A stretch of 63,019 nucleotides of DNA, filler included. It is 3 parts of 3 records of this genome, joined end to end, with 100 filler letters (N's around TTAATTAATTAA, not from the genome) between each part and the next. Parts side by side here need not be neighbours in the genome. Positions count along the whole stretch, not along the records: positions 45,970 to 63,019 come from DRR723986_14693; 2 more parts are not named here. One strand, 5' to 3'. The position numbers were made by a program, and so were the translations under genes. Below the pieces are notes generated by a model that searched no databases, was not told the DNA's origin, and worked only from the letters and a program-made list of their open reading frames with translations. Shown here piece after piece: positions 45,870-62,362 of the stretch (position 1 is its first letter; every line of letters begins with the position of its first letter).

Positions 45870-45969
45870 NNNNNNNNNNNNNNNNNNNNNNNNNNNNNNN
45901 NNNNNNNNNNNNNTTAATTAATTAANNNNNNNNNNNNNNNNNNNNNNNNNNNNNNNNNNNNNNNNNNNN
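45870..45969. other. Artificial contig linker (44 N + TTAATTAATTAA + 44 N)
   Basis: Identical in design to the first linker; sharp drop in GC after it. Confidence 0.98.
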
Positions 45970-58964: not shown

Positions 58965-59882
58965 ATGGTTCATGGTACTCATAATGCTATAGAGGATTCT
59001 AGAAACAACAATATTTTAATAGCAATAAACGACGAACTTTTCACAAGAAATGATGCCAAGATATCTGTTTTTGATAGTGGGTATTTAGTCGGTGACGGAG
59101 TGTGGGAAGCGCTCAGGCTACATCACGGAAAATTAGTCTTTTTAGAAGATCATTTTAATAGGTTATGGCAATCTGCGGCAACCATTGGAATGCGTTTGCC
59201 ATTCACAAAGAAGGAGCTCACCGATAAAGTTTGGACTGTATTGCATGCCAATAAAATGTCAGATGGAGTTCACGTTAGAATTATGTTGACTCGTGGTATA
59301 AAAAAAACACCTTCTCAAGATCCAAGATTGACCATTTCTGGACCAAATGTGGTAATTATTCCAGAGTTTAAAGAGGCTTCAAAATCTTCCAAAGAAAAAG
59401 GAATCACGCTCTTTACTAGTACTGTGAGGAGAGGTTCACCAGATTATTTAGATCCAAGATTAAATTGTCATAGTAAATTACACGAAGTACAGGCATTAAT
59501 ACAAGCTATAGAAGCTGGTGCTGATGAAGCACTGATGCTTGATGTTAATGGATTTGTATCAACCTGTAATGCAACTAATTTTTTTATTGTTAGAAACAAT
59601 GAGGTTTGGACTTCTACCAGTAAATATTGCATGAATGGAATAACGAGAGCAAAAGTTCTCCAAGTTTGTAAAGAAAATAATATTCCACATTTAGAAAAAG
59701 ACTTTTCACTCTTTGATGTTTATGGCGCAGATGAAGCTTTTGTTACTGGTACCTTCGGTGGCTTAACTCCTGTTACCAAAATAGATGGTAGACAAATTGG
59801 TAAAGGTAAATTTGGTGAAATGACTAAGAATCTGAGCAATTTGTATGAAAAATTAATAGAAAAAGAGGTTGAAAATGGATAA
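58965..59882 (+). CDS. Fold-type IV PLP-dependent aminotransferase-like protein (atypical active site)
   Basis: ISVFDSG…GDGVWE, HFNRL, GITR, DEAFVTGT; DPRLNCHSKL in place of the usual PxxKSxNY. Confidence 0.88.
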   Translation: MVHGTHNAIEDSRNNNILIAINDELFTRNDAKISVFDSGYLVGDGVWEALRLHHGKLVFLEDHFNRLWQSAATIGMRLPFTKKELTDKVWTVLHANKMSDGVHVRIMLTRGIKKTPSQDPRLTISGPNVVIIPEFKEASKSSKEKGITLFTSTVRRGSPDYLDPRLNCHSKLHEVQALIQAIEAGADEALMLDVNGFVSTCNATNFFIVRNNEVWTSTSKYCMNGITRAKVLQVCKENNIPHLEKDFSLFDVYGADEAFVTGTFGGLTPVTKIDGRQIGKGKFGEMTKNLSNLYEKLIEKEVENG

Positions 59883-60600
59883 TATAAAGCGTATTTGCTT
59901 ATGGTCTGGCCCCAGAAATATATCAACTGCATTAATGTATTCTTTTGCACAACGTAGTGATACAAAAGTCTTTGATGAGCCTTTGTATGGTTATTATTTA
60001 AAAACACATCCTGAGGCACATCAATATCACCCTGGATCAGAGGATATAATTAATACTATGGAAACAGTAGGTGATAAAGTGGTTGATATGATGCTTTCTT
60101 ATAATGAAAAACCAGTCTTATTTTTTAAACATATGACGCATCATTTATTGGGATTAGACCGCGATTTTATGAAGCAAACCATTAATATTATGCTCACAAG
60201 AGATCCTGAGGATATGTTGCCTTCCTTTGACAAAGTCATTAAAAATCCAACTATAAATGATGTGGGTTATGCTATGCATGTGGAGTTACTTAATTATTTT
60301 GAGAAAAATAAAATTCCGTTTGTTGTTTTAGATTCTAAAAAGGTACTTTTAGATCCAAAAAATACGCTCATTAAATTATGCAAATTTGCTGAAATTAAGT
60401 TTGAAGATGCTATGTTATCTTGGGTGCCGCAACGAAGGGAAGAAGATGGAATATGGGCAAAATATTGGTACAATAGTGTGCATAAATCTAGGGGGTTTTT
60501 AAAATATACAGCAAAAGATAAAACAATACCCAATCATCTCAATCAACTATTAAAAGAGTGTTTGCCATATTACAATCAGCTCATTGAATATTCTATTTAG
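59875..60600 (+). CDS. Sulfotransferase-like P-loop protein
   Basis: WSGPRNISTALM (5'-PSB-like loop), DEPLY, RDP…S (3'-PB-like), DG.WA.YWY; start overlaps the upstream gene. Confidence 0.75.
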   Translation: MDNIKRICLWSGPRNISTALMYSFAQRSDTKVFDEPLYGYYLKTHPEAHQYHPGSEDIINTMETVGDKVVDMMLSYNEKPVLFFKHMTHHLLGLDRDFMKQTINIMLTRDPEDMLPSFDKVIKNPTINDVGYAMHVELLNYFEKNKIPFVVLDSKKVLLDPKNTLIKLCKFAEIKFEDAMLSWVPQRREEDGIWAKYWYNSVHKSRGFLKYTAKDKTIPNHLNQLLKECLPYYNQLIEYSI

Positions 60601-60665: not shown

Positions 60666-61931
60666 ATGAACTTGAAGAATTATATCATCTTTGTTTTTAC
60701 GCTCTTTGTTAGTTTTAATACGTATGCTTCATACATATTGATTCCTATGGATTCAGAAACACAGGAAAATCATCTAAAAGCATATGGCGTAACCTACTGG
60801 ACCTTAGAACGCGAATTAAAAGTGAAGTGGTTACTTAATTATAGAGGAGGTTCATTTCTATTACCTGATGCAGAAATTATACAGAAAGAATGTCAAATAA
60901 GAGGAGTTTCGTTCGAGGTGATTTCAGATTCTAAAGCAGCAGAAATATTAGAGGCGATTAGTAGTCCTGCTGTTAATCAAGAAGCTGTTGTTTTAGAGAA
61001 GGCGCCTAAAATTGCAGTTTATACACCTTATGGAAAGCAACCATGGGATGATGCAGTGACTATGGTGTTAACTTATGCTGAAATTCCTTATGAAACCATA
61101 TATGATGAGGAGGTATTGAATGATGAATTATTGCTATACGATTGGTTACACTTACATCACGAAGATTTTACAGGGCAATACGGTAAATTTTATAGAACAT
61201 ATAGGTCTGCTGCTTGGTATATAGAAGAGAAAAAGGCTGCCGAAGAGCTAGCAACAAAGTTAGGATTTAGTAAGGTGTCAGAAGCAAAATTAGCTGTGGC
61301 AAATAAAATACGCGACTATGTCGTTGGTGGTGGTTTTATGTTTGCAATGTGCTCTGCAACTGATAGTTTTGATATCGCTTTATCTGCAGAAGGAGTGGAT
61401 ATTTGTGAACCCATGTTTGACGCAGACGGAAGTGATCCAGGATATCAGAATAAAATAGATTTTTCAAAAACATTTGCTTTTAAAGATTTCATTTTAGAGC
61501 AAAGTCCTAATGTTTATGAATTCTCTTCAATAGATATGACACAAAAAAGACAGATTCCAAAAACTACTGATTATTTTTCATTAATGGAATATTCAGCAAA
61601 ATGGGATCCAATACCGACTATGCTTACCCAGAATCATACAGCTTTAGTAAAAGGGTTTATGGGGCAAACTACAGCTTTTACGAGAGATCAAATAAAGTCA
61701 AATGTATTGGTAATGGGTGAAAATAGAACTAATGGTGAAGCTAAATACATTCACGGGATAAAAGGCAAAGGGTTCTTTACTTTCTATGGAGGTCATGATC
61801 CAGAAGATTATACCCATAGAGTGGGTGATCCAAAAACAGAATTAGACTTACATCCAACTTCACCAGGTTACAGATTAATATTAAACAATGTACTTTTTCC
61901 AGCAGCGAAAAAGAAAAAGCAAAAAACGTAA
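60666..61931 (+). CDS. Conserved exported protein with class I glutamine-amidotransferase-like fold
   Basis: Signal peptide (NTYA-S); PKIAVY, DWLHLHHEDFTGQ, GGFMFAMCSA nucleophile-elbow-like Cys, GGHDPED. Confidence 0.7.
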   Translation: MNLKNYIIFVFTLFVSFNTYASYILIPMDSETQENHLKAYGVTYWTLERELKVKWLLNYRGGSFLLPDAEIIQKECQIRGVSFEVISDSKAAEILEAISSPAVNQEAVVLEKAPKIAVYTPYGKQPWDDAVTMVLTYAEIPYETIYDEEVLNDELLLYDWLHLHHEDFTGQYGKFYRTYRSAAWYIEEKKAAEELATKLGFSKVSEAKLAVANKIRDYVVGGGFMFAMCSATDSFDIALSAEGVDICEPMFDADGSDPGYQNKIDFSKTFAFKDFILEQSPNVYEFSSIDMTQKRQIPKTTDYFSLMEYSAKWDPIPTMLTQNHTALVKGFMGQTTAFTRDQIKSNVLVMGENRTNGEAKYIHGIKGKGFFTFYGGHDPEDYTHRVGDPKTELDLHPTSPGYRLILNNVLFPAAKKKKQKT

Positions 61932-61939
61932 TTTTCAAA

Positions 61940-62362
61940 TTGAAATTTTATCAGAAAGAAATACGTCTTCCACAAAAACAAAGAGGATTTCATCTTATCA
62001 CATCTGAAGTATTATCGAATATTGAAGAAATTCGAGAAATTAAAATAGGCGTATTGCACGTATTTACTAAACATACTTCTGCTAGTTTATCAATAAACGA
62101 AAATGCGGATCCTACTGTTAGGGAAGATTTTGAGGCGCACATAAATAAAATGGTACCTGAGAATATGTCTTATTACAAACACATATATGAAGGGTCAGAC
62201 GATATGCCTGCTCATGTAAAATAATCTTTATTAGGGAGCTCAGTTCAAATCCCAGTGACTAATGGTAAATTGAACTTAGGTACTTGGCAAGGTATATATT
62301 TAGGCGAACATCGTAATTTTGGAGGATCAAGAAGACTTGTAATAACCTTAGTAGGAAACTAA
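61940..62362 (+). pseudogene. yjbQ: YjbQ/UPF0047 family gene interrupted by one in-frame TAA (62222-62224)
   Basis: HTSASL.INENADP, EG.DDMPAHVK* continues in frame as SLLGSSVQIP…LGTWQGIYLGEHR…GN* to give a ~140-aa YjbQ. Confidence 0.85.

What the first reader, a model, noticed from the sequence alone, without database searches (positions are those of the whole stretch)
58965..60600. Rewired fold-IV PLP enzyme coupled to a sulfotransferase-like protein: unknown two-enzyme pathway
Seen: the phosphate-cup residues are intact (HFNRL, GITR, VTGT). By-eye alignment to PxxK-S-x-N-Y-L gives P-R-L-N-C-H-S-K-L, so Asn (59463) replaces the Schiff-base Lys and a Lys (59475) appears four residues later. 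VSTCNATNFF has Thr where BCAT, D-amino-acid transaminase and PabC have the pyridine-binding Glu (VxEGxxxNxF). The next gene overlaps by 8 nt and has a PAPS-loop-like WSGPRNIST. From memory, plant 'BCAT-like' proteins fuse these two domains. Inference: not an ordinary IlvE, but a module with different chemistry, e.g. sulfation or phosphorylation of a hydroxyl followed by PLP-dependent elimination.
Basis: partly seen in the sequence, partly recalled or inferred. Interest (0 to 1): 0.72.

Follow-up and report, generated by a model that had tools for sequence, protein, structure and literature searches.

The report
Lysine-less aminotransferase look-alike with sulfotransferase partner
Two overlapping genes of a marine flavobacterium encode a sulfotransferase and an aminotransferase look-alike that lacks the residues needed for transamination; the pair is conserved from bacteria to algae, and its substrate and product are still unknown.

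Summary
Gene A (58965-59882) is a fold-type-IV protein with Asn in place of the Schiff-base Lys and Thr in place of the pyridine-binding Glu. A Lys replaces the Tyr four residues after the lost Lys, and the phosphate cup is intact. Its closest solved relative is the 'aminotransferase-like protein' of Variovorax paradoxus (PDB 7Z79), which carries the same Asn.

Gene B (59875-60600) overlaps A by 8 nt. It is a PF19798 sulfotransferase, closest to tyrosylprotein sulfotransferases and to the CurM/OLS sulfotransferase domains.

The pair is adjacent in 70 of 80 loci from many bacterial phyla, with no conserved third gene. It is fused in green algae and a chytrid. A sister clade with His in place of Lys shows the same partnership. 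In 301 Bacteroidia genomes, all 24 sulfotransferase carriers have APS kinase, against 135 of 277 non-carriers. That supports PAPS as the donor.

A is not an IlvE, Dat or PabC. The 'displaced Lys' is Arg in a subclade, so it is unlikely to form a Schiff base. The substrate is unknown, and I found no published function.

This scan reported the same module at least eight times on other DNA, so this is a new member of a known, uncharacterised kind.

The parts
58965..59882 (+). Gene A: 305-aa lysine-less fold-type-IV 'aminotransferase-like' protein (Asn clade, 7Z79 type)
   Evidence: Pfam Aminotran_4 E 7.6e-44. Below all NCBIfam cut-offs. 7Z79 E 1.1e-93. Model pLDDT 90.7 with Z 40.5 and rmsd 1.5 over 301 residues to 7Z79. 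Homologues are 305 aa, which sets the start at the second ATG.
59160..59162 (+). Arg66 codon (HFNRL), phosphate-cup arginine, retained
   Evidence: Aligned to the Arg of 'hidRl' in BCAT 5MQZ. Invariant in 42 homologues.
59463..59465 (+). Asn167 codon, in place of the Schiff-base Lys
   Evidence: Aligned to the Lys of 'pniKslnyl' in BCAT 5MQZ and to the Asn of 7Z79; 9J32 is the N174K mutant of 7Z79. Invariant.
59475..59477 (+). Lys171 codon, in place of the Tyr that binds PLP O3' in canonical enzymes
   Evidence: Alignment. Lys in representatives with Thr200 and Arg in those with Ser200.
59562..59576 (+). Thr200-Cys-Asn-Ala-Thr (TCNAT); Thr is in place of the pyridine-N Glu
   Evidence: Alignment. 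C201 and N202 invariant. N202 and T204 are shared with the His sister clade but not with canonical enzymes.
59875..59882 (+). 8-nt overlap of the gene B start (ATG) with the gene A stop (TAA)
   Evidence: Sequence. In 48 of 61 measured loci the conserved Trp of gene B begins 40 nt or less after the stop of gene A.
59875..60600 (+). Gene B: 241-aa sulfotransferase of family PF19798 (Sulfotransfer_5)
   Evidence: Pfam E 1.1e-38. Model pLDDT 95.7. VIA Z 15.2 to TPST1, 15.0 to OLS ST and 14.7 to CurM ST. Profile hits CurM ST at E 6.2e-9 and OLS ST at 9.6e-8.
59902..59928 (+). WSGPRNIST, the loop at the place of the 5'-phosphosulfate-binding loop
   Evidence: W10, P13, R14, N15, S17 and T18 are invariant in 39 homologues. 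The motif assignment is recalled knowledge of sulfotransferases.
60199..60225 (+). RDPEDMLPS, an Arg-x7-Ser 3'-phosphate-binding motif
   Evidence: R109, P111 and S117 are invariant. Aligned to 'RhPysvieS' of CurM ST.

Best explanation
The two overlapping genes are one conserved functional unit.

Gene B is a PAPS-dependent sulfotransferase (PF19798). Gene A has a complete fold-type-IV (BCAT-like) scaffold, but the three residues that perform PLP chemistry are replaced in a conserved way: the Schiff-base Lys by Asn, the pyridine-N Glu by Thr, and the O3' Tyr by Lys. The phosphate cup and the carboxylate-binding arginines are kept, and new basic or polar residues are added (R28, H103, K113, K136, N202). 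So A cannot be a transaminase of the IlvE/Dat type or a PabC-type lyase.

The most likely working model is inferred, not shown. B transfers sulfate from PAPS to a hydroxyl of a small carboxylate or amino-acid-like metabolite. A is physically associated with B. A binds that anionic ester, or the acceptor, in the old PLP and substrate pocket, with the ester group in the phosphate cup. A then either processes the ester (for example by loss of sulfate) or presents the acceptor to B.

My odds, stated separately: about 0.9 that this is the 7Z79-type / PF19798 module and not a transaminase; about 0.75 that PAPS is the donor; about 0.3 that A has any particular catalytic role.
For: Shown by calls:
- Residue replacements come from alignment to solved BCATs and to 7Z79 and are conserved.
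- The model of A matches 7Z79 at Z 40.5 and rmsd 1.5.
- B has a sulfotransferase fold. Its only significant PDB sequence relatives are CurM ST and OLS ST. The PSB-like loop, K85 and R109-x7-S117 are invariant.
- Adjacency: 70 of 80 loci from many phyla carry the sulfotransferase gene, 67 of them directly downstream on the same strand. In 48 of 61 measured loci the two genes are within coupling distance.
- No third conserved neighbour was found.
- Of the 10 loci without the partner, 5 genomes carry it elsewhere.
- In 301 Bacteroidia genomes, 19 of 20 carriers of a lysine-less protein also carry PF19798 (Fisher p 1.5e-24).
- Fusions: 25 of 38 longer homologues carry both domains, with the sulfotransferase domain at the N-terminus.
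- APS kinase is present in all 24 PF19798-positive Bacteroidia genomes against 135 of 277 negative ones (p 1e-7), and in 10 of 10 pair-bearing genomes of other phyla.
- Five of 5 pair-bearing genomes have 3-4 class IV paralogues, so A is not the only, housekeeping enzyme.
Against: - No substrate, product, cofactor or complex was observed. The complex predictor was unavailable.
- APS kinase is common anyway (159 of 301 genomes; 11 of 14 controls), and genomes within one class are not independent samples.
- An earlier scan note (e1-5128301) says SAR86 carriers mostly cannot make PAPS. I did not test that group.
- Four or five lineages keep gene A without any PF19798 gene in the assembly. They place it beside M24 PepQ-like hydrolases and dipeptide ABC transporters instead. 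So A can work without B, and the 'sulfate ester in the phosphate cup' idea is not general.
- From memory, not checked: the depositors of 7Z79 reported that the protein can still hold PLP non-covalently. That would favour a cofactor-dependent reading.
Confidence: 0.6

Rival explanations
1. A is a catalytically dead pseudoenzyme. It serves only as the acceptor-binding, specificity or regulatory subunit (a domain in eukaryotes) of the sulfotransferase, for example by sensing a branched-chain amino or keto acid.
For: All three PLP-chemistry residues are lost. The substrate-side residues inherited from BCATs are kept: R51, R105, R110 and the phosphate cup. The partnership and the fusions are obligate-looking.
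Against: The replacement residues are themselves invariant (N167, C201, N202) or co-vary (K171 with T200, R171 with S200). That looks like a new active or binding site, not decay. Gene A also persists without B in some lineages, in catabolic-looking clusters.
Confidence: 0.25
2. One reading: A is still a PLP or PMP enzyme that holds the cofactor non-covalently. It uses His169 and Lys171 as the base and eliminates the sulfate that B installed. This would parallel His-for-Lys PMP enzymes such as ColD (recalled) and the Ser/Thr at the pyridine N of fold-type-II eliminases (recalled).
For: The phosphate cup is intact. The sister clade keeps the Glu and has His at the Lys position. The nearest sequence relatives of B are CurM ST and OLS ST, whose sulfate is a leaving group (recalled). 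Retinol dehydratase is also among the fold matches.
Against: Position 171 is Arg in 7Z79 and in 14 of 15 Asn/Ser representatives, and Leu, Gln or Met in the His clade. There is therefore no conserved amine or base at that position. No cofactor data were obtainable here.
Confidence: 0.15
3. A is an ordinary IlvE, Dat or PabC whose catalytic Lys was merely misaligned.
For: Strong overall similarity to BCATs (E 1.8e-58 to 5MQZ; Z 36 to 5E25).
Against: HMMER alignments place Asn on the Lys, and the solved homologue 7Z79 has the same Asn, with a deposited N174K mutant. The Lys is absent in all 54 Asn-clade representatives. The score is below every NCBIfam cut-off. The genomes carry other class IV paralogues.
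Confidence: 0.01
4. B is not a PAPS sulfotransferase. It is a kinase-like P-loop enzyme or uses another donor.
For: The loop is PRNIST rather than the usual P-K/R-S-G-T-T (sequence; the consensus is recalled). dCK and adenylate kinase appear low in the Foldseek list.
Against: There is no Walker-A GK[ST]. The top 50 structural matches are all sulfotransferases. The R-x7-S motif is aligned to CurM ST. APS kinase is present in 24 of 24 carriers.
Confidence: 0.05

Closest known systems
'Aminotransferase-like protein' of Variovorax paradoxus, PDB 7Z79 (released 2022-04-13), and its N174K mutant 9J32 (released 2025-01-29)
   Same: Same clade. E 1.1e-93. 48% identity, Z 40.5 and rmsd 1.5 over 301 residues. 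Asn at the Lys position, and the same N-x-H-S-[KR] and [ST]-C-N-x-T-N-F-F motifs.
   Different: 7Z79 has Arg and Ser where this protein has Lys171 and Thr200 (the R/S subtype against the K/T subtype). No function is attached to 7Z79 in anything I could read; its paper is not held.
Eukaryotic 'branched-chain-amino-acid aminotransferase-like protein 1/2' (PF19798 + PF01063 fusion)
   Same: The same two domains. Green-algal and Gonapodya fusions are 44-54% identical to gene A and are of the Asn type (P0282, P0284, P0285, P0124, P0148).
   Different: Here the two are separate, overlapping genes in the order A then B, while the fusions have the sulfotransferase first. Many long forms belong to the His sister clade (KIHHNN...AETNATN). 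Land-plant identity (Arabidopsis At3g05190 and At5g27410) is recalled and in earlier notes, not tested here.
His-type lysine-less clade with its own PF19798 partner (Bacteroidia and fused eukaryotic forms)
   Same: It lacks the Lys and shares R28, W47, H103, K113, E134, K136, N202 and T204 with the Asn clade. It lies on the same side of the tree as the Asn clade (quick tree, SH-aLRT 89-95). The sulfotransferase gene is adjacent in 10 of 12 loci.
   Different: His at the Lys position, the Glu retained, Leu/Gln/Met at position 171, and the gene order sulfotransferase then aminotransferase-like (10 of 10).
Sulfotransferase domains of CurM (4GBM) and olefin synthase (4GOX)
   Same: The only significant PDB sequence matches of the gene B profile (E 6.2e-9 and 9.6e-8). 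The alignment covers K85, R109-x7-S117 and the C-terminal helix. Z 14.7-15.0.
   Different: Those are domains of polyketide synthases acting on carrier-protein-bound beta-hydroxyacyl chains, followed by a thioesterase (recalled). Here there is no PKS, carrier protein or thioesterase nearby.
Canonical fold-type-IV enzymes (archaeal BCATs 5MQZ, 5E25, 5CM0; E. coli IlvE 1I1K; Bacillus Dat 1DAA; PabC 1ET0)
   Same: Whole fold (Z 32-36), 37-38% identity to the archaeal BCATs, the phosphate cup, and the R105/R110 'TRG' region.
   Different: The Schiff-base Lys, the Glu to the pyridine N and the Tyr to O3' are all replaced.

Membership tests
Canonical class IV transaminase or lyase (IlvE / Dat / PabC) | Schiff-base lysine on the strand after the 'P-x-x-K' turn | tested here: not met
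   Asn167 aligns with the Lys of 5MQZ. Asn in all 54 Asn-clade representatives.
Canonical class IV transaminase or lyase (IlvE / Dat / PabC) | Glu hydrogen-bonded to the pyridine N1 (VxEGxxxNxF) | tested here: not met
   Thr200 aligns with the Glu. Thr or Ser across the clade.
Canonical class IV transaminase or lyase (IlvE / Dat / PabC) | Curated family score (NCBIfam equivalogs and subfamilies) | tested here: not met
   Best 248.5 bits against a cut-off of 363. ilvE_I 200.9 against 245.55. D_amino_aminoT 180.8 against 277.45. pabC_Proteo 101.1 against 176.85.
Canonical class IV transaminase or lyase (IlvE / Dat / PabC) | Fold and phosphate cup (Arg, Ile-Thr, Thr-Gly-Thr) | tested here: met
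   Z 32-36 to BCAT and Dat structures. R66, T227, T261 and G262 invariant.
7Z79-type lysine-less aminotransferase-like proteins (Asn clade) | Asn at the Lys position, Ser/Thr at the Glu position, Lys/Arg at +4, and the C-N-x-T-[NH]-F-F motif | tested here: met
7Z79-type lysine-less aminotransferase-like proteins (Asn clade) | Close sequence and structure similarity to 7Z79 | tested here: met
   E 1.1e-93. Z 40.5 and rmsd 1.5 over 301 of 305 residues.
7Z79-type lysine-less aminotransferase-like proteins (Asn clade) | PF19798 partner gene adjacent or fused | tested here: met
   8-nt overlap here. 70 of 80 loci.
PAPS-dependent sulfotransferases, family PF19798 | Family profile above the curated cut-off | tested here: met
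   133.3 bits against 23.2.
PAPS-dependent sulfotransferases, family PF19798 | Sulfotransferase fold | tested here: met
   pLDDT 95.7. Z 15.2, rmsd 4.1 and 216 aligned residues to TPST1. All 50 listed matches are sulfotransferases.
PAPS-dependent sulfotransferases, family PF19798 | 5'-PSB loop and 3'-PB Arg-x7-Ser motif | tested here: met
   P13, R14, S17, T18, R109 and S117 invariant. R-x7-S aligned to CurM ST. The motif definitions are recalled.
PAPS-dependent sulfotransferases, family PF19798 | The host can make PAPS (APS kinase) | tested here: met
   24 of 24 carriers against 135 of 277 non-carriers in Bacteroidia. 10 of 10 in other phyla. The window's own genome is not held.
PAPS-dependent sulfotransferases, family PF19798 | Sulfate transfer to a defined acceptor | not testable with these tools
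   Needs an enzyme assay.
Activating sulfotransferases of CurM / OLS type | Embedded in a PKS module, carrier-protein-bound substrate, followed by a thioesterase | tested here: not met
   No such genes in the window contig or among conserved neighbours. Only homology of the sulfotransferase domain.
Eukaryotic BCAT-like protein 1/2 | Single polypeptide with N-terminal PF19798 and C-terminal PF01063 | tested here: not met
   Two genes here. The apparent long ORFs in 6 high-GC loci lie in a different frame from gene A (coordinates).

The most novel reading that the evidence does not exclude
An ancient two-step 'activate by sulfation, then convert' pathway shared by bacteria, algae, fungi and plants. 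In it, a BCAT scaffold has been rebuilt into a cofactor-independent (or non-covalent B6) enzyme. That enzyme docks a sulfate ester in the former PLP phosphate cup and removes or displaces the sulfate. The co-varying Lys/Thr or Arg/Ser pair and the invariant Asn, His and Cys would form the new active site. The lineages without the sulfotransferase, which sit beside M24 hydrolases, would feed the same enzyme an amino-acid-derived substrate by another route.
Probability: 0.15. Interest if true: 0.85.

Novelty: new member of a known kind. Interest (0 to 1): 0.5.

Why it matters
The module is one of the more widespread conserved gene pairs with no assigned function. It occurs in many bacterial phyla and, as a fusion, in green algae and a chytrid (and in land plants, according to recalled names and earlier notes). 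It is routinely annotated as 'branched-chain amino acid aminotransferase', which is wrong for a protein without the Schiff-base lysine.

Finding its substrate would add a new sulfated metabolite or a new use of PAPS to central metabolism. It would also show what a PLP fold can do after losing its PLP chemistry.

For this window the practical value is a corrected annotation and three testable leads:
- the link to PAPS supply;
- the Lys/Thr against Arg/Ser covariation at positions 171 and 200;
- the variants without the sulfotransferase that sit beside M24 hydrolases.

Tried and rejected
None gave a paper on 7Z79, on the function of PF19798 or on the fusion proteins. PF19798 is only listed in two reviews or surveys (passages read). 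The Physcomitrella HIP6 'sulfotransferase' paper is unrelated: it describes a transmembrane P-loop protein and does not mention an aminotransferase (passages). A guessed DOI for the 7Z79 paper is not held. Supplements were not consulted.
- Third conserved gene: none. The next most common neighbours after the pair are antisense shadow ORFs or Flavobacteriaceae synteny (12 of 80 loci or fewer). A class I/II aminotransferase lies nearby in 7 loci only.
- Bacterial fusions: the six long ORFs that span both genes are frame artefacts of high-GC DNA.
- Rfam: no match on the 17-kb contig.
- Promoter and terminator scan: fewer promoter-like sites than in shuffles and no terminator. The scan is not suited to Bacteroidota.
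- Protein atlas: returned only the protein's own family.
- Sequence search of gene B alone against the PDB: nothing below E 0.07.
- The careful tree search did not finish, so only the quick tree is reported.
- The window's own genome is not held. PAPS supply and paralogues were therefore tested in relatives, not in this organism.
Full report
WHAT IS THERE. The finding lies on the low-GC part of the window (about 32% GC). This part is separated from the preceding, higher-GC DNA by a run of N with a stop-codon linker near 45.87-45.94 kb, so the window is a concatenation of contigs. No whole genome is held for it. The nearest relatives of both proteins are Winogradskyella and other Flavobacteriaceae, at 84-93% and 85% identity.

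Gene A runs from 58965 to 59882. Its homologues are 305 aa, which sets the start at the second ATG. Gene B runs from 59875 to 60600, and its homologues are 241 aa. The ATG of B overlaps the TAA of A by 8 nt.

CHECK OF THE OBSERVATION. The by-eye alignment is borne out by HMMER alignments to solved structures:
- Against the archaeal BCAT 5MQZ, Asn167 sits on the Schiff-base Lys.
- Lys171 sits on the Tyr four residues later.
- Thr200 sits on the Glu of the V-x-E-G-x-x-x-N-x-F strand.
- Arg66, Gly-Ile-Thr-Arg and Thr-Gly-Thr coincide with the same residues of the BCAT.

The roles of these residues (Schiff base, pyridine N1, O3', phosphate cup) are established knowledge of E. coli IlvE and Bacillus Dat. 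I recall them and did not test them.

Gene A scores below the curated cut-off of all 19 NCBIfam class IV models that it touches.

CLOSEST SOLVED RELATIVE. The best PDB match is 7Z79, 'aminotransferase-like protein from Variovorax paradoxus', at E 1.1e-93. It has the same Asn, and 9J32 is its N174K mutant. My AlphaFold model of gene A (pLDDT 90.7) superposes on 7Z79 with Z 40.5 and rmsd 1.5 over 301 residues. It superposes on BCATs and Dat with Z 32-36.

I could not read the paper behind 7Z79. My recollection is that the depositors found a normal fold and non-covalent PLP binding but no function. That recollection is unverified.

THE FAMILY. I aligned the 150 best 50%-identity cluster representatives with the query. 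Three groups appear at the Lys and Glu columns:
- Asn with Thr (39 rows, including the query) or Asn with Ser (15 rows).
- His with Glu (26 rows).
- Canonical Lys with Glu (40 rows).
- The remaining rows are fragments or oddities.

Within the Asn group, position 171 is Lys where position 200 is Thr. It is Arg in 14 of the 15 rows where position 200 is Ser. This covariation suggests that the two side chains work together. It also argues against residue 171 being a relocated Schiff-base lysine.

A quick maximum-likelihood tree of 84 near-full-length rows puts 39 of the 40 canonical rows on one side of a branch (SH-aLRT 95). All His and Asn rows fall on the other side, with the Asn group nested as a supported clan (96). 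The careful search did not finish, and the tree is unrooted.

Both lysine-less groups share derived residues that canonical enzymes lack: R28, W47, H103 with a one-residue insertion, K113 with an insertion, E134, K136, N202 and T204. All three groups keep the phosphate cup and R105/R110. The pocket therefore looks rebuilt and more basic, not decayed.

THE PARTNER. Gene B matches Pfam Sulfotransfer_5 (PF19798) at E 1.1e-38. Its model (pLDDT 95.7) matches only sulfotransferases among the 50 best structural alignments. The best are TPST1 (Z 15.2, rmsd 4.1, 216 residues aligned), olefin-synthase ST (Z 15.0) and CurM ST (Z 14.7). The next tier is at Z 12.3 or lower.

A profile of 39 homologues finds only two significant PDB sequences, CurM ST (E 6.2e-9) and OLS ST (E 9.6e-8). 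The alignment covers the invariant K85, R109-x7-S117 and the C-terminal helix.

I recall, and did not read here, that these two domains install sulfate as a leaving group. Retinol dehydratase, another sulfotransferase-fold enzyme, is also among the Foldseek matches.

LINKAGE.
- A scan of one genome per species returned 80 loci from Bacteroidota, Chloroflexota, Balneolales, Opitutaceae, Trueperaceae, Rubrobacteraceae, Acidimicrobiia, and Alpha- and Gammaproteobacteria.
- Seventy of these loci hold a PF19798-type ORF. Sixty-seven are directly downstream on the same strand, and three are adjacent on the opposite strand.
- In 48 of 61 loci that I could measure, the conserved Trp10 codon of B begins 40 nt or less after the stop of A. 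That is, the genes overlap or abut, as they do here (19 nt).
- Six long ORFs that seem to span both genes lie in another frame than gene A, so none of the 80 is a fusion.
- No other neighbour is conserved beyond single families.
- Of the ten loci without the partner, two are cut by a contig end. Five genomes hold the gene elsewhere, and five assemblies have none.

In a sample of 301 Bacteroidia genomes, 20 carry a lysine-less protein (17 His type, 3 Asn type) and 24 carry PF19798. Nineteen carry both (Fisher p 1.5e-24). The genomes are related, so this p-value overstates independence.

The His type has the opposite gene order, sulfotransferase first, in 10 of the 10 adjacent cases among the 12 loci fetched. 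This is the domain order of the eukaryotic fusions. Fusions make up 25 of 38 longer homologues. The named ones are green algae (Chlorella, Volvox, Scenedesmus and others) and the chytrid Gonapodya.

PAPS.
- APS kinase (PF01583) is present in 10 of 10 pair-bearing genomes from five other lineages.
- It is present in all 24 PF19798-positive Bacteroidia genomes, against 135 of 277 negative ones (p 1e-7).
- The tallies 159 of 301 and 135 of 277 include one genome flagged unpublished (G200). Leaving it out gives 158 of 300 and 134 of 276 and changes nothing.
- This supports PAPS as the donor.

NOT THE HOUSEKEEPING ENZYME. Five of five pair-bearing genomes have 3-4 class IV paralogues each.

AN UNEXPECTED VARIANT. 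The five assemblies with gene A but no PF19798 gene all have an M24 hydrolase within about 7 kb. Their gene A keeps Asn, His-Ser-Lys and T-C-N.
- In L032 and L075 a PepQ-like M24 gene directly follows gene A.
- In L038 one lies 0.8 kb upstream.
- In L035 gene A ends a cluster of an M24 gene and a dipeptide-type ABC importer, followed by a GntR regulator and an enolase-superfamily gene.
- In L058 the M24 gene is a true ectoine hydrolase 6.6 kb away, and the contig ends 70 nt after gene A. That case says little.

These loci do not form one clade in a FastTree of the 80 proteins. So A can apparently function without B, in amino-acid or peptide contexts. This argues against a pure 'regulatory subunit of B' reading and points to an amino-acid-like ligand.

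HOW IT MOST LIKELY WORKS.
- Shown: A lacks the chemistry of a transaminase but keeps the phosphate and carboxylate sites. B is a sulfotransferase-fold protein with intact nucleotide-binding motifs. The two are inherited, transcribed and often fused together, and carriers can make PAPS.
- Inferred: B sulfates a small hydroxylated carboxylate or amino-acid-like metabolite. A, bound to B, holds that anionic compound in the old cofactor and substrate pocket and either converts it or presents it.
- Open: I cannot tell conversion (elimination) from presentation, nor exclude non-covalent PLP or PMP.

COMPARISON AND NOVELTY. The protein is a member of the 7Z79-type lysine-less clade, and its partner is a member of PF19798. 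It fails the membership test for IlvE, Dat and PabC and for CurM-type PKS sulfotransferases. It is the split bacterial form of the eukaryotic 'BCAT-like protein' fusion.

The same module was reported by this scan at least eight times on other genomes, with the same reading.
- the split into Asn and His types with opposite gene orders and a shared origin;
- the Lys/Thr against Arg/Ser covariation;
- the 24-of-24 APS-kinase association;
- the variants without the sulfotransferase that lie beside M24 hydrolases.

It is a new member of a known but functionally uncharacterised kind. In none of my ten literature searches did I find a function in print.

Noticed in passing
window 45870-45940: A run of N interrupted by 'ttaattaattaa', a six-frame stop linker. 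GC falls from about 0.49-0.56 before it to 0.25-0.35 after it. The window is a concatenation of contigs of unlike composition, possibly a mixed bin. The finding lies on the last, Flavobacteriaceae-like contig.
   Followed up: partly
window 60666-61931 (+): A 421-aa protein with a hydrophobic N-terminus and no Pfam or NCBIfam match lies directly after the pair. It is conserved at this place in only 9 of 80 loci (all among L001-L028), so it is not part of the module.
   Followed up: partly
window 61940-62224 (+): The UPF0047 (YjbQ-like) ORF stops after 94 aa and covers only positions 2-74 of the 117-position profile. This may be a frameshift or a truncated gene.
   Followed up: no
L032:7248-8357, L075:8846-10051, L038:5774-7180, L035:469-6012: In the assemblies that have the lysine-less gene but no PF19798 gene, it lies beside PepQ-like M24 hydrolases. 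In L035 and L038 it also lies beside dipeptide-type ABC transporter genes. This is a second, unexplained partnership.
   Followed up: partly
L017:6633-7928, L022, L023 (directly upstream of gene A); L039, L042, L043, L062 (nearby, opposite strand): A class I/II aminotransferase (PF00155) gene lies next to the pair in 7 of 80 loci (Balneolales, Rubrobacteraceae, an actinomycete). It may be lineage synteny or a hint at an amino-acid substrate.
   Followed up: no
proteins P0309, P0375, P0315: Rows that fall inside or next to the Asn clade in the quick tree but carry Lys with Thr, Lys with Gly, or Gly with Gly at the two key columns. They may be reversions or intermediates.
   Followed up: no
proteins P0121, P0139, P0123, P0125: Single metagenomic or genomic proteins in which the lysine-less domain is joined to a metallophosphoesterase/5'-nucleotidase, an OMP-decarboxylase-family domain, a PEP-mutase-family domain or a methyltransferase domain. 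Each occurs once and may be a gene-calling run-on.
   Followed up: partly
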